Shown here: positions 9,080-33,878 of the stretch, in pieces | Layout of the letters: every line of letters begins with the position of its first letter | How positions within the stretch are numbered: position 1 is the first letter of the stretch | Assembly (NCBI RefSeq): GCF_001677475.2 | Contig: NZ_CP015229.1 | Length of the DNA stretch: 64,000 bases | Reading direction: 5' to 3' (one strand) | Source: Escherichia coli | GTDB lineage: Bacteria; Pseudomonadota; Gammaproteobacteria; Enterobacterales; Enterobacteriaceae | Notes under the pieces: model-generated | Database searches by the model: none | The model's input: only the letters and a program-made list of their open reading frames with translations | What the model was told of the DNA's origin: nothing | Made by a program: the position numbers and the translations under genes

Positions 9080-9739
9080 ATGCGAATTTTACTGATAGAA
9101 GATGACATGCTGATTGGCGACGGCATCAAAACGGGCCTTAGTAAAATGGGTTTTAGCGTCGACTGGTTTACACAAGGTCGTCAGGGAAAAGAGGCGCTAT
9201 ACAGCGCACCTTATGATGCGGTGATCCTGGATTTAACCTTACCAGGCATGGATGGTCGCGATATTTTGCGCGAATGGCGAGAAAAAGGTCAGCGTGAGCC
9301 GGTATTGATCCTGACCGCGCGCGATGCGCTGGCGGAACGTGTAGAAGGGCTGCGTCTGGGAGCTGACGATTATCTGTGTAAACCTTTTGCGTTGATAGAA
9401 GTCGCCGCCAGGCTAGAAGCTCTGATGCGCCGAACCAACGGCCAGGCCAGCAACGAGCTGCGCCACGGCAACGTCATGCTCGACCCCGGCAAACGTATCG
9501 CCACACTGGCTGGCGAACCCTTAACGCTGAAACCAAAAGAATTTGCCCTGCTGGAATTACTGATGCGTAACGCTGGTCGGGTACTGCCGCGCAAACTGAT
9601 TGAAGAGAAACTGTATACCTGGGACGAAGAGGTCACCAGTAATGCCGTTGAAGTGCATGTGCATCATCTGCGACGCAAACTCGGCAGTGATTTTATTCGT
9701 ACCGTTCATGGTATTGGCTACACATTAGGTGAGAAATGA
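9080..9739 (+). CDS. qseB: Two-component response regulator QseB (OmpR family)
   Basis: 219 aa; receiver domain (MRILLIEDD) plus winged-helix C-terminus; 4-nt overlap with downstream kinase gene. Confidence 0.9.
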
Positions 9740-11085
9740 AATTTACCCAACGTCTTAGTCTGCGAGTCAGGCTGACGCTAATCTTTTTAATTCTGGCCTC
9801 GGTGACCTGGCTGCTTTCCAGCTTTGTCGCCTGGAAACAAACAACGGATAACGTCGATGAGTTGTTCGACACCCAACTGATGCTGTTTGCCAAACGGTTA
9901 AGTACGCTCGATCTCAACGAAATCAACGCGGCAGATCGCATGGCACAGACGCCAAATAAATTAAAACACGGTCATGTTGATGACGATGCGCTGACCTTTG
10001 CCATCTTTACCCACGACGGCAGAATGGTCCTTAACGATGGCGATAACGGAGAAGATATTCCCTATAGCTATCAGCGGGAAGGTTTTGCTGACGGGCAACT
10101 GGTCGGTGAAGACGATCCCTGGCGTTTTGTCTGGATGACCTCACCTGATGGCAAATATCGCATCGTTGTTGGTCAGGAATGGGAATACCGCGAAGACATG
10201 GCGCTGGCGATTGTTGCCGGGCAATTGATCCCGTGGCTGGTCGCACTGCCGATTATGTTAATCATCATGATGGTACTACTGGGTCGTGAACTCGCGCCGC
10301 TGAACAAACTGGCGCTGGCACTACGTATGCGTGACCCTGACTCGGAAAAACCACTAAACGCGACGGGCGTACCTAGCGAAGTGCGTCCACTGGTTGAGTC
10401 GTTGAATCAACTGTTCGCCCGCACACATGCGATGATGGTTCGTGAACGACGCTTTACCTCCGACGCAGCTCACGAACTACGTAGCCCGTTAACGGCGCTG
10501 AAAGTGCAAACCGAAGTTGCGCAGCTCTCTGACGATGATCCGCAGGCGCGGAAAAAAGCGCTGCTTCAATTACATTCCGGAATCGATCGCGCTACTCGTC
10601 TGGTTGATCAACTGCTCACGCTATCGCGGCTGGACTCACTGGATAACCTTCAGGACGTCGCGGAGATCCCGCTTGAAGATCTCCTGCAATCGTCGGTGAT
10701 GGATATTTACCACACGGCGCAGCAGGCGAAAATTGACGTGCGACTGACACTCAATGTCCAGGGCATCAAACGCACCGGACAACCGCTATTGCTAAGTTTG
10801 TTGGTGCGAAACCTTCTGGATAACGCCGTGCGTTACAGTCCACAGGGTAGCGTGGTAGACGTCACGCTGAATGCCGATAATTTCATCGTGAGGGATAACG
10901 GCCCCGGTGTGACGCCAGAGGCACTGGCGCGAATTGGCGAACGCTTCTATCGCCCACCCGGGCAAACCGCTACCGGCAGTGGACTTGGGCTATCGATTGT
11001 CCAGCGAATCGCCAAATTGCATGGCATGAATGTTGAGTTTGGGAATGCGGAACAAGGTGGATTTGAGGCGAAGGTAAGCTGGTAA
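9736..11085 (+). CDS. qseC: Sensor histidine kinase QseC
   Basis: 449 aa; two TM segments, H-box (AAHELRSPL), ATPase domain; translationally coupled to qseB. Confidence 0.9.
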
Positions 11086-11194
11086 GGGTAAGACTTTTGC
11101 TAAATTCGCAAAAGACTTTGCACATTTTGCTAATTTCACCGTACCGCTCTGTGACGTACTATAGTCGACAAACGTCTCACCTTGAGGTTAAAAA

Positions 11195-11776
11195 ATGAGC
11201 AACATCCTGATTATCAACGGCGCGAAAAAATTCGCCCACTCCAATGGTCAACTGAACGACACCCTGACCGAAGTCGCGGATGGCACACTGCGCGACCTCG
11301 GGCATGATGTCCGCATCGTTCGCGCCGACAGCGACTACGATGTCAAAGCGGAAGTACAAAACTTTCTCTGGGCTGATGTGGTGATCTGGCAGATGCCAGG
11401 CTGGTGGATGGGCGCGCCGTGGACAGTGAAAAAATACATTGATGATGTATTCACCGAAGGTCACGGGACTCTGTATGCCAGCGATGGTCGTACCCGCAAA
11501 GATCCGTCGAAAAAATACGGCTCCGGCGGCCTGGTACAGGGCAAAAAATATATGCTTTCTCTGACCTGGAACGCACCAATGGAAGCCTTCACCGAAAAAG
11601 ATCAGTTCTTCCACGGCGTTGGCGTTGACGGTGTGTATCTGCCGTTCCATAAAGCAAACCAATTCCTCGGTATGGAACCGCTGCCGACATTTATCGCTAA
11701 TGACGTGATAAAAATGCCTGATGTTCCCCGCTATACTGAAGAATATCGCAAGCATCTTGTGGAAATTTTTGGTTAA
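11195..11776 (+). CDS. mdaB: NADPH:quinone oxidoreductase MdaB
   Basis: 193 aa flavodoxin-like; MSNILIINGAKKFAHSNGQLN. Confidence 0.85.
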   Translation: MSNILIINGAKKFAHSNGQLNDTLTEVADGTLRDLGHDVRIVRADSDYDVKAEVQNFLWADVVIWQMPGWWMGAPWTVKKYIDDVFTEGHGTLYASDGRTRKDPSKKYGSGGLVQGKKYMLSLTWNAPMEAFTEKDQFFHGVGVDGVYLPFHKANQFLGMEPLPTFIANDVIKMPDVPRYTEEYRKHLVEIFG

Positions 11777-11806
11777 CTAGAGCTCAGGCTTTAGAAGGAG
11801 TTAACC

Positions 11807-12121
11807 ATGCTTACCGTAATCGCAGAAATCCGTACTCGTCCTGGTCAACATCACCGTCAGGCGGTATTGGATCAGTTTGCTAAAATCGTTCCAACCGTAC
11901 TGAAGGAAGAAGGTTGCCACGGCTATGCGCCGATGGTGGATTGCGCTGCTGGCGTGAGTTTCCAGTCTATGGCGCCGGACTCTATCGTGATGATTGAGCA
12001 GTGGGAAAGCATCGCGCATCTTGAAGCGCACTTGCAGACCCCGCACATGAAAGCGTACAGCGAGGCCGTAAAAGGCGATGTGCTGGAGATGAATATCCGC
12101 ATCCTGCAACCGGGGATTTAA
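11807..12121 (+). CDS. ygiN: Quinol monooxygenase YgiN (ABM domain)
   Basis: 104 aa; follows mdaB with RBS GGAG. Confidence 0.8.
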   Translation: MLTVIAEIRTRPGQHHRQAVLDQFAKIVPTVLKEEGCHGYAPMVDCAAGVSFQSMAPDSIVMIEQWESIAHLEAHLQTPHMKAYSEAVKGDVLEMNIRILQPGI

Positions 12122-12165
12122 CATTCCTGAAAAGAGGCCGGTGTTGCTACCGGCCTCAGGTCAGA

Positions 12166-13053
12166 TTAGCCATTCTTTCTTCCCGTTTTCAAACCCCGAT
12201 GGAAATCGTTAATTCGCTTAATGGTTTTAACCGCACGCTGCGGCATCGCGGAAGCCACCGACCAGACAATCATTTCCAGGCACAACAATACCGTACCATG
12301 TAGTGGCGTTTTCCCCTTTTCATCCCCGCGCGGAACATGAATCACGATACTGGCGTCTTTGCTAAAACGTGAATCCAGCGCGTTTGTCAGCAAAATAACA
12401 GGGATCCCCAGCCGCCTCGCCTCACGAAGCGTTGTCAGCCCTTCCCGGTGCGCAGATTTTTGCGCCATCATGATCAGAACATCGCCACGTTGAAGCGCGA
12501 TCAGTTGCTCGGCAAGGCCAATACCCGTACGGTTTAGTGCCGTGGCAGGCAAACCTATGCGGTTGAATAGTCGTGCGGTATAGTCCGCCAGAATACCCGA
12601 AGCGCCAATGCCAAAAATTGCGACTTGCCGTGCCTGCACCAACAACGCTACCGCTTGCGCAAGCGCGTGGCGGTTTTCAGGCTCTGACAGGACATTACAA
12701 GTATACAAATGCCCTTCAAGAACAAAGTCGATTGCGGTGTTAACATCGCTCGTCAAGTTACTCACCGTCGTAGACATCTTTTCGCTGGAACTAAGGGCTG
12801 GACCAAGCCACTGTTCCAGAGTGCGTCTCAGATCACGCAGCCCGGCAAACCCCAGAGCCTGTATAGCCCTGATAACTGTGGCATCGGAAGTGTTCAACGT
12901 GGCCGCAATTTCCATCGCCGTTTGCTCGAGTACCACTTCACGATGCTCATTAATGTAGCTTGCGACAGCTCTTAACCCAGGCGTTAACTGACTCGCGCGA
13001 GTGCGAAAACGCTCACCATAAATATCAACCCGCGTTTTGTCTTTCTGGATCAT
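12166..13053 (-). CDS. RpiR/MurR-family transcriptional regulator (HTH + SIS domain)
   Basis: 295 aa; N-terminal HTH and SIS-domain-like core; start codon overlaps stop of upstream binding-protein gene. Confidence 0.65.
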   Translation of the reverse strand: MIQKDKTRVDIYGERFRTRASQLTPGLRAVASYINEHREVVLEQTAMEIAATLNTSDATVIRAIQALGFAGLRDLRRTLEQWLGPALSSSEKMSTTVSNLTSDVNTAIDFVLEGHLYTCNVLSEPENRHALAQAVALLVQARQVAIFGIGASGILADYTARLFNRIGLPATALNRTGIGLAEQLIALQRGDVLIMMAQKSAHREGLTTLREARRLGIPVILLTNALDSRFSKDASIVIHVPRGDEKGKTPLHGTVLLCLEMIVWSVASAMPQRAVKTIKRINDFHRGLKTGRKNG

Positions 13054-13997
13054 TTAGCCTCCGGTAGAGGTCGTCCCGCAATTTGTGATTGTATCTGCGC
13101 AGCCATCAGCCCCAGAGATGCAAAGGAGTTAGAAATCGCCTCTTCACGAGAAATCAGCACATAGCGCCCGGAACGACAGGCCGTCAGAAACTGACACCAT
13201 CCCGGCATGACTTTTTCCATTGCTGCCAGCTCATCCTGAGGTTTACCACCGGTGTCACCGCGCCAGGTTGCAAAAACAAAATCGGCATCCAGTTCAGGTA
13301 AACGCTCTGCGCTCACATCCATTCGCCCACCTTCAGGAATGCTCTCAATCAGCGGCGGAAAGCGAAAACCAGCATCGCGTAATACCCGCCCCAGCGAATG
13401 ATAGCTATGCATCACATTAATTTTTCCCTGATTTGCCTGAATCACCGATACCGTTATTTTTTGGCTGTCCAGCGTCGCCTTCAGCGCATTGATTTGTGCC
13501 TGATAGCGGCGTTCAAGTATCGCCAGCTGCGACTGCGTTCCTGTAAGTTCTGCCAGCTTGCGGTAGATTTCTGGCGCGCCTCCTTTGAGATGATCAATGC
13601 TCACCGTGGGCGCAATTTTTTCCAGTTGTTCAATGGGCGTATTACGGGTCGGTTCTGTGATGATCAGGTCAGGCTTTGCCGCCACAATCGCTTCAATATC
13701 AATATCAGCGGTGCCAATAAAAGCGATCGATGAATTATCAAAGTCGACACCTGTCAATAACGCGCCTGATCGAATGAAATGGCTACCGTCAGGCCGGGTT
13801 CGCCCGTGGCTGGCGACAGGAGGTACACCGAGCTCAATCAGAGGAATAGTGATATCAAGATCGTGTAAAGAGACAATTCTCTTTGGATGAGCAGGAACAG
13901 TGACTTTGCGCCCTAAATCATCAGTAAAGACCTGAACAGGTTCTGTCGCGCGGGCAAAGAATGACAACAGTATCAGCAGAGAAAAAAATAAACGCAT
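13050..13997 (-). CDS. Periplasmic substrate-binding protein, siderophore/cobalamin type (FecB-like)
   Basis: ORF 13050-14060; probable start at Met preceding signal peptide MRLFFSLLILLSFFARA. Confidence 0.7.
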   Translation of the reverse strand: MRLFFSLLILLSFFARATEPVQVFTDDLGRKVTVPAHPKRIVSLHDLDITIPLIELGVPPVASHGRTRPDGSHFIRSGALLTGVDFDNSSIAFIGTADIDIEAIVAAKPDLIITEPTRNTPIEQLEKIAPTVSIDHLKGGAPEIYRKLAELTGTQSQLAILERRYQAQINALKATLDSQKITVSVIQANQGKINVMHSYHSLGRVLRDAGFRFPPLIESIPEGGRMDVSAERLPELDADFVFATWRGDTGGKPQDELAAMEKVMPGWCQFLTACRSGRYVLISREEAISNSFASLGLMAAQIQSQIAGRPLPEAK

Positions 13998-14007
13998 ATA
14001 ACTCCCA

Positions 14008-15057
14008 TTAAAAACTGTTCCTGCGCTGCCAGAGCAGTAGCAAAAAGAATGGTCCACCAATCAATGAAATAATGATTCCGGCAGGCAGTTGCAAAGGCAA
14101 AAAAGCCAAACGACCAATGCTATCCGCCAGGATGACTAACAACGCCCCCGATACGGCGCTCCCCAGCAGTAATGTCGTCTGCCCGCCACGTAGAATAAAA
14201 CGTGATATATGGGGTGCTATCAATCCGACAAAACCGATGTTACCAACACACGAAACGCAGACGGCTGTCAGGATTATTGGTGCGGCGACACGTAACAACG
14301 CCAGACGAGAACTATTCACCCCTAACCCGGTTGCAACCTGATGACCAAGCAGAGCGATATCCGCCGTCCTGGCGGTGAACAGCAATAAAAGAGCGGCTGG
14401 CAACATCCAACAGGCTGAAATACCGACTAACATCCAGTTAGCTGCATGCAGGCTTCCCGATAACCACATCAATGCAGTTTGTACATCTCGAACATCTGCA
14501 GTGGTCATAAATACACCGATACCGGCGGCGAAAAACCAGGAAACACCAATACCAATCAGAACAAATCGCGGGCGGGAAATATCGCGTGCACAAAAAATCA
14601 CGATTAAAGCCACCAACAAGCCACCAGCAAGACCAGCCACTGGACGCCAGAACATTCCCAGCATTGGAAACTGGAAGATCAGCCACAGCACCGCCACGCT
14701 ACATCCTTCTTTGACGCCGATTAAACCAGGATCGGCAAGGCCGTTACGCGCAATGGATTGCATCGCGGCCCCCGCCATACCTAACATGGCTCCGCATAGC
14801 AATGCCATGATGACTCTCGGCAAGCGAATATCCTGCACAATATAACGTGCGTCTGTGCTTACGTTTTCTGGAGCAAACAACGCTCGTCCTACTTCCGATG
14901 CCGGGACAGAAAAAGAACCATGCATCAGACCGAATATCAGTATTCCAACCGCAAACAGAAACAGCCCACCAAGCAACACCAGATTTTTAGGGCGTACCAG
15001 TGTCGAAAACTTACCAACACGTAGTGGACGTAGCCCGACGTTCATTATCCGACTCAT
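14008..15057 (-). CDS. ABC transporter permease, FecCD family
   Basis: 349 aa polytopic membrane protein. Confidence 0.75.
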   Translation of the reverse strand: MSRIMNVGLRPLRVGKFSTLVRPKNLVLLGGLFLFAVGILIFGLMHGSFSVPASEVGRALFAPENVSTDARYIVQDIRLPRVIMALLCGAMLGMAGAAMQSIARNGLADPGLIGVKEGCSVAVLWLIFQFPMLGMFWRPVAGLAGGLLVALIVIFCARDISRPRFVLIGIGVSWFFAAGIGVFMTTADVRDVQTALMWLSGSLHAANWMLVGISACWMLPAALLLLFTARTADIALLGHQVATGLGVNSSRLALLRVAAPIILTAVCVSCVGNIGFVGLIAPHISRFILRGGQTTLLLGSAVSGALLVILADSIGRLAFLPLQLPAGIIISLIGGPFFLLLLWQRRNSF

Positions 15058-16037
15058 TTGAACATCCTCGTCGCCATAATGACAAAAACAGGCGCACCAA
15101 CTAACGCCGTCATGACACCGGTCGCTAACTCATGGGGCGTGAAAAGCGTCCGAGCAATAATATCTGCCAGTAATAACAAAAGCGCGCCGACACAAGCTGA
15201 AAGAGGGAGCAGAACGCGCAGATCCGCTGATACCAGACGCCTGACAATCTGCGGTACTAGCAGGCCGACAAAACCAATGGGGCCAGCAATCGATACGGCT
15301 GCGCCACAGAGCAACGCGATCGCAAGCAGAGTGAATGTTCGCGTGCGGAGTACCGAGACGCCCAGCCCCTGCGCCATGCGATCACCCAGTGCCAACATGT
15401 TAAGAGAGGGCGCAAGGTAAATGGCTAACACAACCCCCCCCAGAGAAAACCAGGCGGACGTACCCAGCGTCGCCCAATCCTGCCCCGCTAAATCACCTGC
15501 TAGCCATGTCCGCATCGCCAGCAGTGTTTGTTCGTCAAGAATCAGGATTGCAGCCGTTATTGAGGACACGAACGCCGATAGCGCCACGCCGCATAAAGTA
15601 ACTTTCATTGGCGTTAACCCTGAACGCCCTGCGGAGGAAAGCAGCAATATCAACAGGAACAATAACGCGCCCCCCGTAGATGCCAGCAGTGGGCGTCCAA
15701 CCGGAAAGGCCAGTCCAAGCGCACTGGCGGCAACGACAGCAAGAGCGGCTCCGGCATTTAAGCCTAAAATATGTGGCTCCCCCAATGGGTTACGAATGAC
15801 AGCCTGCAACAAAGCACCAGCAACTCCAAGAGAAGCACCGGTAAGCAATGCTGCCGCTAAACGCGGCAAACGGAGTCTTACAATTACGTTGTGATCGAAG
15901 TTTTGCGGTTCAAAATGAAGAAATGCCTGCAACACCGTTTGTGGTGCAATAAATCGGGCACCAATCCCTGGATATACCACGCATCCCACCAGCAGTAAGG
16001 CGAGGAAAATTACAGTAACCAGCCCTGTGCGCATCAT
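15054..16037 (-). CDS. ABC transporter permease, FecCD family
   Basis: 327 aa polytopic membrane protein; overlaps neighbouring genes by 4 nt. Confidence 0.75.
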   Translation of the reverse strand: MMRTGLVTVIFLALLLVGCVVYPGIGARFIAPQTVLQAFLHFEPQNFDHNVIVRLRLPRLAAALLTGASLGVAGALLQAVIRNPLGEPHILGLNAGAALAVVAASALGLAFPVGRPLLASTGGALLFLLILLLSSAGRSGLTPMKVTLCGVALSAFVSSITAAILILDEQTLLAMRTWLAGDLAGQDWATLGTSAWFSLGGVVLAIYLAPSLNMLALGDRMAQGLGVSVLRTRTFTLLAIALLCGAAVSIAGPIGFVGLLVPQIVRRLVSADLRVLLPLSACVGALLLLLADIIARTLFTPHELATGVMTALVGAPVFVIMATRMFK

Positions 16038-16843
16038 ACTTTTTCTACACCACGAAACGGCATGAAGAACGGCTTTCCCGTCAGAGGATTTATTGATGCG
16101 TGAACATCAACGTCAAAGACAGCTTTTACCAGCTCAGGCGTGCAATGCTCCCCCTCATTCAACACACGCACCACTTTCCCCTGGCGTAAAAATATCAACG
16201 TATCGCCATAATTGACGGCAAAATTCAGATCATGCAACACCACGACGACTGTACGCCCGTGATGACGCGTTAAGTCATGTAATAACTCAAGAATTTCAAC
16301 CTGATAACGTAAATCAAGCCAGGTTGTGGGTTCATCCAGCAGGATATAAGGCGTCTTTTGCGCCAACACCATCGCAATCCAGCAACGCTGGCGCTGCCCA
16401 CCAGAGAGTTTTTCAACCGGTAAATGTGCAAACTCCTGCGTACCGGTTAATTTCAGGGCCTCTTCTACCGCCTGCTCGTCGGCGTCGCTCCATTGACGTA
16501 TGAAATTTTGCCAGGGAAAACGCCCACGCGACACCAGTTCATAAACGGTTAAGCCCTCCGGCAATAATGGCGACTGCGGCAAGATCCCAAGTCTACGGGA
16601 TAACGCTTTCGTTGGTTGCTCGTGAATCGCTTTACCATCCAGCAATATAGAGCCGCCCATAGGCTGCAAGATACGTGCAATGGTGCTGAGCAACGTCGAC
16701 TTTCCACAGCCGTTTGCCCCAACCAGAACGGTCATTTTTTCTGTGGGAACGGAGAAAGAAACACCATCAACAATGATCTTCTTGTGATACCCGGCAGAAA
16801 CATTGTCGAGGATCAGCCCCTGCCCTTTTGCGTTATGTGCCAC
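16034..16843 (-). CDS. ABC transporter ATP-binding protein (FecE-like)
   Basis: 269 aa; Walker A GANGCGKST, signature LSGGQRQR, Walker B ILLDEP. Confidence 0.8.
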   Translation of the reverse strand: MAHNAKGQGLILDNVSAGYHKKIIVDGVSFSVPTEKMTVLVGANGCGKSTLLSTIARILQPMGGSILLDGKAIHEQPTKALSRRLGILPQSPLLPEGLTVYELVSRGRFPWQNFIRQWSDADEQAVEEALKLTGTQEFAHLPVEKLSGGQRQRCWIAMVLAQKTPYILLDEPTTWLDLRYQVEILELLHDLTRHHGRTVVVVLHDLNFAVNYGDTLIFLRQGKVVRVLNEGEHCTPELVKAVFDVDVHASINPLTGKPFFMPFRGVEKV

Positions 16844-17216
16844 GTGTACGCCAACTTAATCAAAGACAAACAAAAATAAAACTCATTCTCTTTTGAGAGT
16901 TTGACGCCACAAAATGTAGTAGTCAAGAAGTTAAAATCCATACAAAAACAAGGTAAATAACAGGTGAAATATTTTTAAAGATAAAAATAAAATCATTAAA
17001 TATTAATAAATTACCATCAATTAAATTGCATTAACCTCTCATAAAAACACATGTAGCAATTTTTTGTTATTTCTCATTTACTACTACATTACCGCATGGT
17101 TGAATGATTCTCAATTACATATCCGATGGTGAAATAACAAACGGATAGTGCTTAGTGAGCAACAAGAAACAATTTTCACTCACGACAATCCGTGAGTTTT
17201 TGGGATAACAGACTAA

Positions 17217-19358
17217 ATGGCTAAGTTCACACCTTCATTCTCAGGAATCAAAGGTCGGGCGCTCTTTTCACTGCTCTTTGCAGCACCGATGATTCATGCA
17301 ACCGACACTGCAACGACCAAAGATGGCGAAACAATCACTGTTACAGCGGATGCAAATACCGCAACTGAGGCGACCGATGGTTATCAACCTCTGAGCACCT
17401 CCACGGCGACATTAACCGATATGCCGATGCTGGATATCCCGCAAGTGGTCAATACGGTTAGCGATCAGGTTCTGGAAAATCAGAATGCGACGACGCTGGA
17501 TGAGGCACTTTATAACGTCAGTAACGTGGTACAGACCAATACATTAGGCGGAACTCAGGACGCCTTTGTACGTCGTGGGTTTGGTGCTAACCGGGATGGC
17601 TCCATCCTGACCAACGGTCTGCGAACCGTACTTCCTCGCAGCTTCAACGCTGCAACAGAACGTGTGGAAGTGCTAAAAGGCCCGGCCTCCACGCTGTATG
17701 GCATTCTTGATCCTGGCGGACTGATTAACGTCGTGACAAAGCGCCCGGAAAAAACATTCCATGGTTCTGTATCAGCCACGTCCTCCAGTTTTGGCGGAGG
17801 CACTGGGCAACTGGATATCACAGGTCCCATTGAAGGCACTCAGCTGGCATACCGCCTGACGGGGGAAGTGCAGGATGAAGATTACTGGCGGAATTTCGGT
17901 AAAGAGCGCAGCACATTTATTGCCCCATCACTCACCTGGTTTGGTGATAATGCAACAGTAACCATGCTCTATTCACATCGGGATTATAAAACGCCGTTCG
18001 ATCGTGGAACGATTTTCGACCTTACGACGAAACAGCCCGTAAACGTTGATCGAAAAATACGTTTCGACGAACCGTTTAATATTACAGATGGTCAGTCCGA
18101 TCTGGCGCAACTCAACGCAGAATATCATCTCAATAGCCAGTGGACAGCGCGCTTTGATTACAGCTACAGCCAGGATAAATACAGCGATAATCAGGCTCGT
18201 GTTACCGCGTATGATGCAACGACAGGAACGCTGACACGGCGTGTTGATGCAACTCAGGGATCTACCCAGCGTATGCATTCTACTCGTGCGGATCTACAAG
18301 GGAATGTTGATATTGCTGGATTCTATAATGAGATTCTGGGTGGGGTGTCATATGAATATTATGATCTTCTGCGGACAGATATGATCCGCTGTAAAAACGC
18401 TAAAGATTTCAATATCTACAACCCTGTTTATGGCAATACCAGCAAATGCACAACGGTCTCGGCGTCGGACAGCGATCAGACGATCAAACAAGAGAGCTAC
18501 TCAGCATATGCGCAAGATGCGCTCTATCTGACCGATAACTGGATTGCCGTCGCTGGGATCCGCTATCAGTATTACACGCAGTATGCGGGTAAAGGCCGTC
18601 CTTTTAATGTCAATACTGACAGCCGCGATGAACAATGGACGCCCAAACTGGGGTTGGTCTACAAACTGACGCCATCGGTATCCTTATTTGCCAATTATTC
18701 GCAAACATTTATGCCGCAATCGTCAATTGCCAGCTACATTGGCGATCTTCCACCGGAATCATCTAATGCTTACGAAGTCGGGGCAAAAGTCGAGCTGTTC
18801 GATGGTATAACCGCAGATATTGCGCTGTTTGATATCCATAAACGTAACGTGTTGTATACCGAAAGTATTGGTGATGAAACCATCGCCAAAACGGCAGGCC
18901 GCGTTCGTTCAAGAGGGGTAGAAGTCGACCTTGCGGGAGCATTAACTGAAAACATTAATATCATTGCCAGCTACGGCTATACCGATGCTAAGGTTCTGGA
19001 AGATCCTGATTATGCAGGGAAACCATTGCCGAATGTTCCTCGTCATACCGGTTCGCTATTCCTGACCTATAACATTCATAACATGCCAGGCAATAACACA
19101 CTGACGTTTGGCGGTGGTGGACATGGCGTAAGCCGTCGTTCGGCAACCAATGGGGCTGACTATTATCTGCCAGGCTATTTCGTTGCCGATGCCTTCGCCG
19201 CATACAAAATGAAATTGCAGTATCCGGTCACACTGCAATTAAACGTCAAAAACCTATTTGATAAAACGTATTACACCTCTTCCATCGCCACAAATAATCT
19301 GGGGAATCAGATTGGCGATCCGCGTGAAGTGCAATTCACGGTGAAAATGGAATTTTGA
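17217..19358 (+). CDS. TonB-dependent outer-membrane receptor
   Basis: 713 aa; signal peptide, TonB-box-like ETITVTA, plug domain, C-terminal aromatic residue (ends MEF); divergent from the ABC operon across an AT-rich 370-bp region. Confidence 0.8.
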   Translation: MAKFTPSFSGIKGRALFSLLFAAPMIHATDTATTKDGETITVTADANTATEATDGYQPLSTSTATLTDMPMLDIPQVVNTVSDQVLENQNATTLDEALYNVSNVVQTNTLGGTQDAFVRRGFGANRDGSILTNGLRTVLPRSFNAATERVEVLKGPASTLYGILDPGGLINVVTKRPEKTFHGSVSATSSSFGGGTGQLDITGPIEGTQLAYRLTGEVQDEDYWRNFGKERSTFIAPSLTWFGDNATVTMLYSHRDYKTPFDRGTIFDLTTKQPVNVDRKIRFDEPFNITDGQSDLAQLNAEYHLNSQWTARFDYSYSQDKYSDNQARVTAYDATTGTLTRRVDATQGSTQRMHSTRADLQGNVDIAGFYNEILGGVSYEYYDLLRTDMIRCKNAKDFNIYNPVYGNTSKCTTVSASDSDQTIKQESYSAYAQDALYLTDNWIAVAGIRYQYYTQYAGKGRPFNVNTDSRDEQWTPKLGLVYKLTPSVSLFANYSQTFMPQSSIASYIGDLPPESSNAYEVGAKVELFDGITADIALFDIHKRNVLYTESIGDETIAKTAGRVRSRGVEVDLAGALTENINIIASYGYTDAKVLEDPDYAGKPLPNVPRHTGSLFLTYNIHNMPGNNTLTFGGGGHGVSRRSATNGADYYLPGYFVADAFAAYKMKLQYPVTLQLNVKNLFDKTYYTSSIATNNLGNQIGDPREVQFTVKMEF

Positions 19359-19359
19359 T

Positions 19360-19400
19360 CAAAAAAGCCCGGTATACACTTGTATACCGGGCTATGTTTT
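19360..19400. terminator. Bidirectional hairpin terminator between receptor gene and parE
   Basis: Stem-loop AGCCCGGTATACACTTGTATACCGGGCT flanked by A-run and T-rich run. Confidence 0.55.
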
Positions 19401-19421
19401 ATTCTTCTGGCGGGAGGATTA

Positions 19422-21317
<1,896 letters not shown>

Positions 21318-32216: not shown

Positions 32217-33878
32217 ATGGATGATATTGTTAATTCTGTGCCCTCCTGGATGTTTACCGCAATTATTGCCGTATGCATTCTGTTTATTATTGGAATTATT
32301 TTCGCCAGGCTCTATCGTCGCGCTTCGGCAGAGCAAGCTTTTGTTCGTACTGGTTTAGGTGGGCAAAAAGTGGTAATGAGCGGTGGCGCAATCGTGATGC
32401 CGATCTTTCATGAAATAATCCCCATCAATATGAATACCCTGAAGCTGGAAGTCAGCCGCTCAACCATTGATAGCCTGATTACGAAAGATCGTATGCGCGT
32501 CGATGTAGTAGTCGCTTTCTTTGTGCGGGTAAAACCTTCAGTAGAAGGGATTGCCACCGCCGCCCAGACGCTGGGGCAACGCACCCTGTCGCCTGAAGAC
32601 TTACGTATGTTGGTTGAAGATAAATTTGTCGATGCCCTCCGTGCAACAGCTGCGCAAATGACCATGCATGAGTTACAGGATACCCGCGAGAACTTCGTGC
32701 AGGGAGTACAAAATACCGTAGCTGAAGATCTGTCGAAAAACGGCCTGGAACTGGAAAGCGTTTCACTTACCAACTTTAACCAGACGTCGAAAGAACATTT
32801 CAATCCTAACAACGCCTTTGACGCCGAAGGTTTAACCAAGCTGACGCAGGAGACGGAGCGCCGTCGTCGCGAACGTAACGAAGTTGAACAGGATGTAGAA
32901 GTTGCGGTGCGTGAGAAAAACCGTGATGCGCTTTCGCGGAAGCTGGAGATTGAACAACAAGAAGCGTTTATGACGCTTGAACAGGAGCAGCAGGTTAAAA
33001 CCCGTACCGCTGAGCAGAATGCGAAAATTGCAGCTTTTGAGGCCGAGCGTCGTCGGGAAGCAGAGCAGACGCGTATTCTGGCTGAACGACAGATTCAGGA
33101 AACAGAAATCGACCGCGAACAGGCCGTCCGCTCAAGAAAAGTTGAAGCTGAACGTGAAGTTCGCATTAAAGAGATCGAACAGCAGCAGGTCACCGAAATC
33201 GCTAACCAGACGAAATCGATCGCTATTGCCGCCAAATCGGAACAACAGTCCCAGGCAGAAGCGCGTGCTAATCTCGCACTTGCAGAAGCGGTAAGCGCCC
33301 AACAAAACGTAGAAACCACTCGCCAGACTGCCGAAGCCGATCGTGCTAAACAAGTTGCCCTAATCGCTGCCGCGCAGGATGCAGAAACCAAAGCGGTTGA
33401 ACTGACCGTGCGGGCGAAAGCAGAAAAAGAAGCCGCAGAGATGCAGGCGGCGGCTATCGTTGAGTTAGCCGAAGCTACACGTAAAAAGGGTCTGGCGGAA
33501 GCAGAAGCACAACGTGCGCTGAACGATGCTATCAACGTACTTTCTGATGAACAAACCAGCCTTAAATTCAAACTGGCCTTGTTGCAGGCGCTACCTGCGG
33601 TAATAGAGAAATCCGTTGAGCCGATGAAGTCTATCGACGGCATCAAGATTATTCAGGTCGATGGATTAAACCGAGGTGGTGCTGCGGGGAATGCGGCATC
33701 AGGCAGCGTTAGTGGCGGAAACCTGGCAGAACAGGCATTGTCTGCCGCCCTTTCTTACCGCACACAGGCACCACTGATTGACTCCTTGCTCAATGAAATC
33801 GGTGTTTCAGGCGGCTCACTGACGGCATTGACCTCACCCTTAACCTCAACAACTCCCGTCGAAGAAAAAGCAGAGTAA
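32217..33878 (+). CDS. yqiK: Flotillin/band-7 (SPFH) family protein YqiK
   Basis: 553 aa; N-terminal TM, SPFH domain, long Ala/Glu-rich coiled coil. Confidence 0.8.
   Translation: MDDIVNSVPSWMFTAIIAVCILFIIGIIFARLYRRASAEQAFVRTGLGGQKVVMSGGAIVMPIFHEIIPINMNTLKLEVSRSTIDSLITKDRMRVDVVVAFFVRVKPSVEGIATAAQTLGQRTLSPEDLRMLVEDKFVDALRATAAQMTMHELQDTRENFVQGVQNTVAEDLSKNGLELESVSLTNFNQTSKEHFNPNNAFDAEGLTKLTQETERRRRERNEVEQDVEVAVREKNRDALSRKLEIEQQEAFMTLEQEQQVKTRTAEQNAKIAAFEAERRREAEQTRILAERQIQETEIDREQAVRSRKVEAEREVRIKEIEQQQVTEIANQTKSIAIAAKSEQQSQAEARANLALAEAVSAQQNVETTRQTAEADRAKQVALIAAAQDAETKAVELTVRAKAEKEAAEMQAAAIVELAEATRKKGLAEAEAQRALNDAINVLSDEQTSLKFKLALLQALPAVIEKSVEPMKSIDGIKIIQVDGLNRGGAAGNAASGSVSGGNLAEQALSAALSYRTQAPLIDSLLNEIGVSGGSLTALTSPLTSTTPVEEKAE

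What the first reader, a model, noticed from the sequence alone, without database searches (positions are those of the whole stretch)
12166..19400. Accessory TonB-dependent uptake locus inserted between ygiN and parE, co-transcribed with an RpiR/SIS-family regulator
In K-12 as I recall it, ygiN is followed directly by parE. Here about 7.2 kb is inserted: a FecBCDE-like ABC importer operon whose last gene is an RpiR-type regulator (start codon overlapping the binding-protein stop), plus a divergent TonB-dependent receptor across an AT-rich 370-bp region containing a weak Fur-box-like sequence (GAATGATTCTCAATTAC around 17102-17118). The gene set resembles fit-type iron loci reported in some E. 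coli, but a sugar-phosphate-sensing SIS-domain regulator embedded in a siderophore-type transporter operon is unusual and may indicate a glycosylated or non-iron substrate.
Basis: partly seen in the sequence, partly recalled or inferred. Interest (0 to 1): 0.5.

Follow-up and report, generated by a model that had tools for sequence, protein, structure and literature searches.

The report
Known E. coli fit iron-uptake locus
This stretch is the already published "fit" iron-uptake gene cluster of pathogenic-type E. coli, including its own repressor FitR, so the finding is real but not new; only the transported compound and the signal FitR senses remain unknown.

Summary
Between ygiN and parE lie a TonB-dependent receptor gene (17217-19358, +) and, divergent across a 373-bp region of about 34% G+C, an operon on the minus strand. 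That operon encodes an ATPase, two FecCD permeases, a binding protein and an RpiR-type regulator (16843 down to 12166). The regulator's ATG overlaps the binding-protein stop codon.

It is the published E. coli fit locus (fitA / fitBCDER; Ouyang and Isaacson 2006, 2008). All 18 published fit primer sequences map to the expected genes with 0-3 mismatches. FitE matches PDB 3BE5/3BE6 at E = 2e-195. The whole locus is present in 1870 of 5426 complete E. coli genomes and absent from HB101, a laboratory strain that I recall to be a K-12/B hybrid.

The "unusual" regulator is FitR. It was shown experimentally to be an autorepressor that binds the fitA-fitB intergenic DNA and acts independently of Fur.

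New here:
- The six-gene cassette is conserved in seven other loci of Enterobacterales.
- Both promoters carry an invariant TTKACTACTACA, whose core is the RccR-type half-site TGTAGT. This is the likely FitR operator.
- Synteny with Lelliottia suggests that K-12-type strains lost the locus rather than that this strain gained it.

Low interest; already known.

The parts
12134..12157 (.). G+C-rich hairpin (GAGGCCGG..CCGGCCTC) between the convergent genes ygiN and fitR; probable bidirectional terminator
   Evidence: Read from the sequence in the alignment. Its function is inferred.
12166..13053 (-). fitR: MurR/RpiR-family repressor, 295 aa, with HTH_6 at residues 15-81 and SIS at residues 138-247
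   Evidence: The ORF is and the Pfam domains. Published fitR primers map at 12863-12886, 12927-12950, 12979-12996 and 12169-12186. Published work shows it is an autorepressor that binds fit promoter DNA.
13050..13997 (-). fitE: periplasmic siderophore-type binding protein (Peripla_BP_2), 315 aa with a signal peptide
   Evidence: E = 2e-195 to PDB 3BE5/3BE6. The start codon and ribosome-binding site are, the ATGA overlap with fitR, and the primers.
14008..15057 (-). fitD: FecCD-family permease (RefSeq uses the ATG at 15045 as the start)
15054..16037 (-). fitC: FecCD-family permease
16034..16843 (-). fitB: ABC ATPase with a GTG start; closest named relative is FecE
16868..16894 (-). Conserved block GAGAATGAG-TTTATTTTT-TTT just downstream of the predicted fitB -10; contains the best Fur-consensus match in the spacer (13 of 19, at 16872-16890). 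Candidate Fur site for PfitB.
   Evidence: Conservation in alignment A1 and consensus scoring. Fur regulation is published; the site assignment is inferred.
16898..16926 (-). Predicted PfitB: -35 TTGACT (16921-16926), 17-nt spacer, -10 CAAACT (16898-16903). The invariant 12-mer TTGACTACTACA (16915-16926) is the candidate FitR operator half-site.
   Evidence: Invariant in eight genera. There are exactly two copies per fit locus and none elsewhere. The core equals the RccR half-site ACTACA/TGTAGT. Inferred, not footprinted.
17077..17105 (+). Predicted PfitA: -35 TTTACT (17077-17082), 17-nt spacer, -10 TTGAAT (17100-17105). The invariant 12-mer TTTACTACTACA (17077-17088) is the second candidate FitR half-site, inverted relative to the first and about 150 bp from it.
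17100..17120 (+). Candidate Fur site for PfitA.
   Evidence: Invariant in all eight genera. It matches 12 of 19 consensus positions, which is not above chance on its own.
17178..17197 (+). Hairpin ACTCACG-N6-CGTGAGT in the fitA leader, about 20 nt upstream of the AUG
   Evidence: A hairpin lies at the same position, with a different sequence, in six of the seven sequences folded. The statistics are weak and the function is unknown.
17217..19358 (+). fitA: TonB-dependent siderophore receptor, 713 aa
   Evidence: TIGR01783 scores 369 bits against a cutoff of 223.5. The nearest solved structures are the enantio-pyochelin receptor, FoxA and FhuA at about 1e-48. The orthologues' precomputed Pfam families are Plug plus barrel only, with no N-terminal signalling domain.
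19366..19393 (.). 12-bp-stem hairpin between the convergent genes fitA and parE; bidirectional terminator-like

Best explanation
This is the E. coli fit locus, made up of fitA and the fitBCDER operon.

Proposed mechanism:
- FitA is a TonB-energised outer-membrane receptor. It takes up a ferric chelate, probably a xenosiderophore whose identity is still unknown.
- FitE carries the chelate across the periplasm, and FitCD with FitB import it.
- The two divergent promoters are repressed independently by Fur-Fe2+ and by FitR, the last gene of the operon. Both of these steps are published.

Steps inferred here:
- FitR probably acts as an oligomer, as its relatives RccR and MurR are tetramers. It would bind the two invariant inverted TGTAGTAGT/ACTACTACA elements that overlap the -35 regions of PfitA and PfitB.
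- Fur would bind the conserved GAATGA-containing boxes at the -10/+1 regions.
- Repression by FitR would be relieved by a cytoplasmic ligand that need not be a phosphosugar.

The locus is a presence/absence polymorphism within E. coli. Its position next to parE is probably ancestral.
For: Identity with fit:
- All 18 published fit primer sequences (the gene-specific part of each) map to the expected genes and orientations with 0-3 mismatches (primers from PMC2593036).
- The published gene order is reproduced: receptor, then ATPase, permease, permease, binding protein, regulator.
- FitE matches PDB 3BE5/3BE6 at E = 2e-195, and another paper labels 3BE6 as Ec-FitE.

Regulation (published):
- A fitR knockout derepresses fit, and overexpression or complementation represses it.
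- Purified FitR shifts the intergenic fragment, which corresponds to window 16837-17195 by the primers.

Distribution:
- 1870 of 5426 complete genomes carry the locus; HB101 lacks it.
- fitA is a marker of phylogroup B2 and adherent-invasive strains.

Conserved module:
- The same cassette occurs in all seven orthologue contexts examined.

Cis-elements:
- Alignment A1 shows the conserved blocks.
- The 12-mer occurs only at fit promoters.
- The TGTAGT/ACTACA half-site is the one defined for RccR, the closest solved relative of FitR.
Against: - The transported substrate is unknown. Later papers say enterobactin is not the substrate, so "ferric xenosiderophore" rests on family membership and on Fur/iron regulation.
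- The Fur boxes are weak consensus matches, not above chance by score alone.
- The FitR operator assignment has not been footprinted. The 12-mer overlaps the -35 hexamer, so part of its conservation could be promoter function.
- No FitR-less cassette was examined as a control.
- I could not read the 2006 founding paper.
Confidence: 0.9

Rival explanations
1. One reading: the SIS regulator senses a sugar phosphate, so the transporter handles a glycosylated siderophore or a non-iron, sugar-containing substrate.
For: - FitR has a genuine SIS domain (Pfam, E = 1.3e-13).
- All ligands so far characterised for the RpiR-family regulators NanR, MurR and RccR are phosphosugars.
- The first phosphate-loop serine (S152) and two basic residues (R161, R165) are kept. 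They align with the RccR ligand-contact positions S139, H148 and R152.
Against: - Three of the four conserved phosphate-binding Ser/Thr positions (RccR S183, S185, S188) are A197, K199 and H202 in FitR, and these are conserved throughout the FitR clade.
- The locus is strongly controlled by Fur and iron.
- FitA passes only the siderophore-receptor model.
- No sugar-processing or kinase gene travels with the cassette in the seven contexts examined.
Confidence: 0.1
2. FitR has no small-molecule ligand. Its degenerate SIS domain serves only for oligomerisation, and FitR simply damps fit expression by negative autoregulation.
For: - The published effect is modest, 2- to 5-fold, and no inducer was reported.
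- The canonical phosphate loop is lost.
Against: The replacement loop QKS-HREG and many pocket-region residues are invariant across genera whose FitR proteins are 68-80% identical overall. This suggests a pocket that is kept under selection.
Confidence: 0.2
3. The invariant TTKACTACTACA is only a promoter element (the -35 plus adjacent bases, or the site of another factor), and FitR binds the other invariant block, ATGTAATTGAGAATCATTCAA.
For: - The 12-mer starts with a good -35 hexamer, 17 nt from a plausible -10, in both directions.
- The 21-mer is just as invariant and contains TGTAAT, one mismatch from TGTAGT.
- The Fur match of that block is weak.
Against: - The 21-mer has no equally invariant counterpart at PfitB, yet FitR represses both promoters.
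- The six bases beyond the -35 (ACTACA) are an exact RccR half-site and are invariant at both promoters.
- The block near PfitB shares GAATGA with the 21-mer and carries the best Fur match. This fits Fur acting at both promoters.
Confidence: 0.25
4. The locus is a recent horizontally acquired island inserted into a K-12-like ygiN-parE junction.
For: - It is patchily distributed, in 34% of genomes.
- Other genera carry the cassette at different chromosomal sites.
Against: - No integrase, transposase, tRNA or flanking direct repeats are present.
- The G+C content of the genes, 48-58%, is like that of the backbone.
- Lelliottia has the cassette at the same parE junction in the same orientation, with ygiN-mdaB-qseCB beyond it.
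- Fit proteins are 75-89% identical between E. coli and Lelliottia, the same range as the syntenic neighbours at 70-95%.
Confidence: 0.25

Closest known systems
[quoted passage not shown]
   Same: It has the same six genes in the same order and orientation. All published primers match, and the intergenic promoter fragment is the same. FitE equals PDB 3BE5/3BE6.
   Different: Nothing essential differs. There are a few allelic differences: 1-3 mismatches in 7 of the 18 primer sequences, and at most 98.8% nucleotide identity to any complete genome in the collection.
Fhu (ferric hydroxamate) and Fec (ferric dicitrate) uptake systems of E. coli K-12
   Same: They share the architecture of a TonB-dependent receptor, a Peripla_BP_2 binding protein, FecCD permeases and an ATPase, and both are under Fur control. 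FitA, FitB, FitC and FitD have their best named NCBIfam matches to FhuA, FecE, FecC and FhuB (with FecD close behind).
   Different: All matches lie far below the equivalog cutoffs, for example FhuA at 229 bits against 803 and FecE at 285 against 375, so these are not orthologues. The precomputed Pfam families of the FitA orthologues show only Plug and barrel, with no FecA-type N-terminal signalling domain. There is no FecIR pair; instead a cytoplasmic RpiR-type repressor is present.
RccR, HexR, NanR and MurR (MurR/RpiR-family one-component regulators with HTH_6 and SIS domains)
   Same: The domain architecture is the same. FitR represses its own operon, as these do. RccR is the closest solved relative (8JU9/8K3B, E about 1e-14). 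The RccR half-site TGTAGT/ACTACA is the core of the invariant fit promoter motif.
   Different: FitR scores below every NCBIfam equivalog cutoff, at best 77.5 bits against a cutoff of 920. Three of the four phosphate-binding Ser/Thr residues are replaced by Ala or Gly, Lys and His. It controls a siderophore-type importer, not sugar catabolism. The two candidate half-sites are about 150 bp apart, rather than forming a 15- or 28-bp palindrome.

Membership tests
E. coli fit locus (fitA / fitBCDER) | Six genes in this arrangement: an outer-membrane receptor gene divergent from an operon encoding ATPase, permease, permease, binding protein and regulator | tested here: met
   The ORFs and RefSeq annotation match the published description.
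E. coli fit locus (fitA / fitBCDER) | Sequence identity with the published locus | tested here: met
   All 18 published primer sequences map to the cognate genes with 0-3 mismatches. FitE matches 3BE5/3BE6 at E = 2e-195. The deposited i484 sequence itself was not available for comparison.
E. coli fit locus (fitA / fitBCDER) | Repression by Fur/iron and by FitR, with FitR binding to the intergenic DNA | not testable with these tools
   Shown experimentally for strain i484. It is inferred for this allele from near-identity.
MurR/RpiR family transcriptional regulators | An N-terminal HTH_6 domain plus a C-terminal SIS domain | tested here: met
   Pfam gives HTH_6 at residues 15-81 (E = 1.3e-9) and SIS at residues 138-247 (E = 1.3e-13).
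MurR/RpiR family transcriptional regulators | Four conserved Ser/Thr residues that bind the phosphate of the sugar-phosphate effector (RccR S139, S183, S185, S188) | tested here: not met
   Only S152, which aligns with S139, is retained. A197, K199 and H202 replace the other three. K199 and H202 are invariant in ten FitR orthologues, and position 197 is Ala or Gly.
MurR/RpiR family transcriptional regulators | Orthology to a named member (MurR, HexR, AlsR/RpiR and others) | tested here: not met
   All NCBIfam equivalog scores are far below their cutoffs, at best 77.5 bits against 920 and 75 against 378.
TonB-dependent siderophore receptors (TIGR01783) | A score above the curated cutoff, with Plug and beta-barrel domains | tested here: met
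   369.3 bits against a cutoff of 223.5. Plug plus TonB_dep_Rec are the precomputed Pfam families of the orthologues.
TonB-dependent siderophore receptors (TIGR01783) | Assignment to a receptor of known substrate (FhuA, FoxA, FhuE, Fiu, FecA and others) | tested here: not met
   All equivalog models score far below their cutoffs. The nearest solved structures are at about 1e-48 and have differing ligands. The literature states that the substrate is unknown.
Siderophore/B12-type ABC importers (FecCD permeases with a Peripla_BP_2 binding protein) | Two FecCD permeases, one ATPase and one Peripla_BP_2 binding protein in a single operon | tested here: met
   NCBIfam matches. PF01032 and PF01497 are recorded for the orthologues. 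Gene junctions overlap or are 10 nt apart.
Fur-regulated promoters | A Fur box matching GATAATGATAATCATTATC better than chance | tested here: inconclusive
   The best matches are 13 of 19 and 12 of 19, and about 77% of shuffles of the spacer reach at least 12. Both candidate boxes are nonetheless conserved across eight genera, and Fur control is published.

The most novel reading that the evidence does not exclude
FitR would be an RpiR/SIS regulator whose ligand pocket has been rebuilt. The loop reads A/G-Q-K-S-x-H-R-E in place of S-Q-S-G-x-S. With this pocket it would sense something other than a phosphosugar, for instance the imported siderophore, its iron-free form or a breakdown product. 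That would give substrate-induced derepression of a siderophore importer on top of Fur control. FitR would bind as an oligomer bridging two TGTAGTAGT half-sites about 150 bp apart, over both -35 regions. It would be the first SIS-domain siderophore sensor, and its ligand would identify the long-unknown Fit substrate.
Probability: 0.3. Interest if true: 0.5.

Novelty: already known. Interest (0 to 1): 0.15.

Why it matters
The locus is a known accessory iron-uptake system. It is enriched in extraintestinal, B2 and adherent-invasive E. coli and is used as a marker. Recognising it here adds nothing new in kind.

What remains open after nearly twenty years is which compound Fit imports and what FitR senses.
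- a specific operator prediction, the paired TGTAGTAGT elements;
- the observation that FitR has lost most of the phosphosugar-binding signature;
- evidence that the six-gene cassette is an old, conserved module of Enterobacterales, and probably ancestral at the parE junction.

These leads could shorten the route to the substrate, but they do not change how iron uptake is understood.

Tried and rejected
- I could not read the 2006 founding paper, because PMC1698097 is not held. What it says is taken second-hand from the 2008 and 2018 papers.
- One literature search with poorly chosen terms returned only noise.
- Searches for a later identification of the substrate found none. One apparent hit was an author named Fita.
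- Scoring the spacer against the Fur consensus does not distinguish it from shuffled AT-rich sequence. I therefore do not count the score itself as evidence.
- The generic sigma-70 scan did not pick up the promoters I propose, because their -10 hexamers are weak, and it found fewer sites than shuffles do. The promoter assignment rests on cross-genus conservation of hexamers at 17-nt spacing.
- The Rfam scan of 11700-19700 found nothing credible, only two microRNA models far below threshold. No known riboswitch or small RNA is present.
- I considered a mobile-island origin. No mobility genes or flanking direct repeats were found.
- I did not run structure prediction. The tool returns no coordinates, so it could not test the ligand pocket.
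- I did not look for fit-like cassettes that lack FitR. These would be the natural control for the operator assignment, but I judged the large database scan not worth its cost for a locus that is already known.


Full report
**1. What is in the sequence**

After qseC (9736-11085), mdaB (11195-11776) and ygiN (11807-12121), all on the plus strand, come five minus-strand genes:
- a 295-aa regulator, 12166-13053;
- a binding protein, 13050-13997;
- two permeases, 14008-15057 and 15054-16037;
- an ATPase, 16034-16843.

A 373-bp spacer follows, then a 713-aa receptor on the plus strand (17217-19358), and then parE (19422-21314, minus strand).

The gene junctions in the operon are tight:
- The ATPase and first permease overlap by 4 nt, as do the two permeases.
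- A 10-nt gap containing a GGGAG ribosome-binding site precedes the binding-protein ATG at 13997.
- The binding-protein stop and the regulator start overlap as ATGA.

The 500-bp composition window spanning the spacer has about 34% G+C, against 48-58% in the genes. The quoted GAATGATTCTCAATTAC is at 17102-17118. G+C-rich hairpins sit between the convergent pairs ygiN/fitR (12134-12157) and fitA/parE (19366-19393).

**2. Absence from K-12-type strains and distribution**

Megablast of 11800-19450 against 5426 complete E. coli genomes finds the whole stretch in 1870 of them, at 97-98.8% identity in the rows listed. The rest match only the ygiN end. HB101, a laboratory strain that I recall to be a K-12/B hybrid, has ygiN followed directly by parE with a 47-bp spacer. 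The flanking housekeeping genes are up to 99.2% identical to E. coli, so the window is E. coli. RefSeq annotates the six genes as:
- TonB-dependent siderophore receptor
- ABC transporter ATP-binding protein
- two FecCD family permeases
- iron-siderophore ABC transporter substrate-binding protein
- MurR/RpiR family transcriptional regulator.

**3. It is the published fit locus**

A literature search returned Ouyang and Isaacson 2008 (PMC2593036). That paper describes the fit system as:
- fitA, the outer-membrane receptor;
- fitB, the ATPase;
- fitC and fitD, the permeases;
- fitE, the periplasmic binding protein;

I mapped the gene-specific part of all 18 published primers onto the window. Each lands in the expected gene, in the expected orientation, with 0-3 mismatches; eleven match exactly. 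The promoter primers span 16837-17195, which is the fitA-fitB spacer. FitE matches PDB 3BE5/3BE6 at E = 2e-195, and another paper labels 3BE6 as Ec-FitE. The identification is therefore direct, not a resemblance.

**4. What is already known about how it works**

All of the following comes:
- Overexpressing FitR represses the fitA and fitB reporters about threefold.
- A fitR knockout derepresses them, and complementation restores repression.
- Purified FitR shifts the intergenic fragment, and unlabelled fragment competes for binding.
- Iron chelation still induces fit in the fitR mutant.

Fur and FitR are therefore independent repressors. The authors left the exact binding sites open. A 2018 paper states that the Fit substrate is unknown and is not enterobactin. 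A 2022 paper uses fitA as a marker of B2 and adherent-invasive E. coli. I found no later identification of the substrate.

**5. Family placement**

- FitA passes only the general siderophore-receptor model TIGR01783 (369 bits against a cutoff of 223.5). It falls far below every receptor model of known specificity.
- Its nearest solved relatives are the enantio-pyochelin receptor, FoxA and FhuA, at about 1e-48.
- The ABC components resemble Fec and Fhu proteins but score below their equivalog cutoffs.
- FitR has HTH_6 (residues 15-81) and SIS (residues 138-247) domains. It is below all named RpiR-family equivalog cutoffs.
- Its closest solved relatives are P. aeruginosa RccR (8JU9; 8K3B has an almost identical alignment) and 4IVN, a chain labelled only "Transcriptional regulator" that I recall to be V. 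vulnificus NanR. These match at about 1e-14.

**6. The cassette is a conserved module**

FitR orthologues of 69-80% identity occur in Lelliottia, Kosakonia, Enterobacter, Raoultella, Serratia, Erwinia, Sodalis and Tatumella. In all seven contexts I fetched, FitR is the last gene of the same operon, divergent from a TonB-dependent receptor.

There are two variants:
- One locus has three extra genes between fitE and fitR: a PepSY_TM membrane protein and two PBP_like_2 proteins.
- In Sodalis the receptor is only 38% identical, while the other five proteins are 61-75% identical.

**7. Position: gain or loss?**

In Lelliottia the cassette abuts parE in the same convergent arrangement. The genes ygiN, mdaB, qseC and qseB lie beyond fitR, after an extra 5-kb sugar-utilisation module. 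Between E. coli and Lelliottia the Fit proteins are 75-89% identical. The syntenic neighbours span the same range:

| Protein | Identity (%) |
|---|---|
| QseC | 69.5 |
| YgiN | 84 |
| MdaB | 86.5 |
| YqiA | 86.5 |
| ParE | 95 |

. There are no mobility genes and no flanking direct repeats. The single hairpin in the HB101 spacer resembles both terminators that flank the cassette here. I infer that the position is old and that K-12-like lineages lost the cassette. This is not proven.

**8. Cis-elements (new here, inferred)**

I aligned the spacers of eight genera (A1). Mean column identity is 56%, but three blocks stand out.

a. TTKACTACTACA is invariant and occurs twice, in inverted orientation:
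- window 16915-16926 on the minus strand (TTGACTACTACA);
- window 17077-17088 on the plus strand (TTTACTACTACA).

Each copy starts with a -35-like hexamer placed 17 nt from a conserved -10-like hexamer. That hexamer is CAAACT, CATGAT or TAAGAT toward fitB, and TTGAAT toward fitA.

b.

c. A conserved block, GAGAATGAG-TTTATTTTT-TTT (16868-16894), lies just downstream of the fitB -10.

The 12-mer occurs exactly twice in each of the eight fit loci. It occurs nowhere else in those 12.7-21 kb stretches, nowhere else in the 64-kb window even with one mismatch allowed, and not in the HB101 locus. Its core, TGTAGT/ACTACA, is the half-site defined experimentally for RccR (PMC5489143), which is FitR's closest solved relative. 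RccR and MurR are tetramers.

I therefore propose that FitR binds the two elements over both -35 regions, possibly bridging them, and that Fur binds blocks (b) and (c). By consensus score alone the Fur matches (13 of 19 and 12 of 19) are not better than shuffles of this AT-rich spacer. Their support is conservation plus the published genetics.

**9. Does the SIS domain sense a sugar phosphate?**

In RccR the phosphate of KDPG is held by S139, S183, S185 and S188. The authors state that four conserved Ser/Thr residues do this job in NanR, MurR and RccR. The pairwise alignment maps these positions to FitR as follows:

| RccR | FitR |
|---|---|
| S139 | S152 |
| S183 | A197 |
| S185 | K199 |
| S188 | H202 |

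FitR thus reads MMAQKSAHRE where RccR reads CISQSGRSKD. In ten FitR orthologues from different genera, Q198, K199, S200, H202, R203, E204 and G205 are invariant, and position 197 is Ala or Gly.

FitR therefore keeps one of the four phosphate ligands and has a different loop that is itself conserved. This argues against a canonical phosphosugar effector. It is compatible with a different, possibly anionic, ligand, or with no ligand at all.

**10. Other checks**

- Rfam finds no credible RNA family in 11700-19700.
- A short hairpin lies about 20 nt upstream of the fitA AUG in six of the seven sequences folded, with unrelated sequences. The folding statistics are weak except in Serratia (z = -4).

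**11. Verdict**

But the locus, its Fur control and its RpiR-type autorepressor have been in the literature since 2006-2008, and FitE has a solved structure. Novelty is "already known" and interest is low. The open points are the substrate and the FitR signal. The operator prediction and the loss of the phosphate signature found here are modest, testable leads.

Noticed in passing
window 11086-11194: ygiZ is missing. Only 109 bp separate qseC from mdaB. HB101 has ygiZ there, and strain U1 has ygiZ plus a hypothetical gene and an Hcp (type VI secretion) gene. The same junction without ygiZ occurs in other E. coli at 99.5% identity, and a similarly short spacer occurs in Lelliottia.
   Followed up: partly
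window 17178-17197, and the equivalent positions in L003, L005, L006, L007 and L008: A 6-11 bp hairpin lies about 20 nt upstream of the fitA start codon in six of the seven sequences folded. Its sequence is not conserved, and it is absent in Sodalis, where fitA has been replaced. It could be a leader structure affecting mRNA stability or translation. The folding z-scores are mostly unremarkable.
   Followed up: partly
L004 7007-10004: One fit cassette has three extra genes between fitE and fitR: a PepSY_TM membrane protein and two PBP_like_2 proteins. PepSY_TM is the family that I recall includes FoxB-type siderophore reductases. The record is labelled Pseudomonas cerasi, but its flanks resemble those of the Serratia locus L008.
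   Followed up: no
L009 2476-4602: In Sodalis the receptor next to the fit operon is only 38% identical to FitA, while FitB-R are 61-75% identical and both promoter motifs are retained. This suggests a receptor swap within a conserved regulatory frame.
   Followed up: no
L002 3323-3369 compared with window 12122-12165 and 19359-19421: The single hairpin in the HB101 ygiN-parE spacer (GCCCGGCC..CCGGGC) resembles both terminators that flank the fit cassette here. This fits a deletion between them, but the polarity is not established.
   Followed up: partly
L006 9995-15333: Lelliottia carries an extra module of about 5 kb between fitR and ygiN. It encodes an AraC regulator, a BcGHD/DUF2264 protein, a LacY-type permease and a GH88 glycoside hydrolase. 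This junction is therefore a hotspot for accessory content.
   Followed up: no
window 32504-32512: A third copy of the 9-mer TGTAGTAGT lies outside the fit locus. It does not have the full 12-mer, even with one mismatch allowed. Its context was not examined.
   Followed up: no
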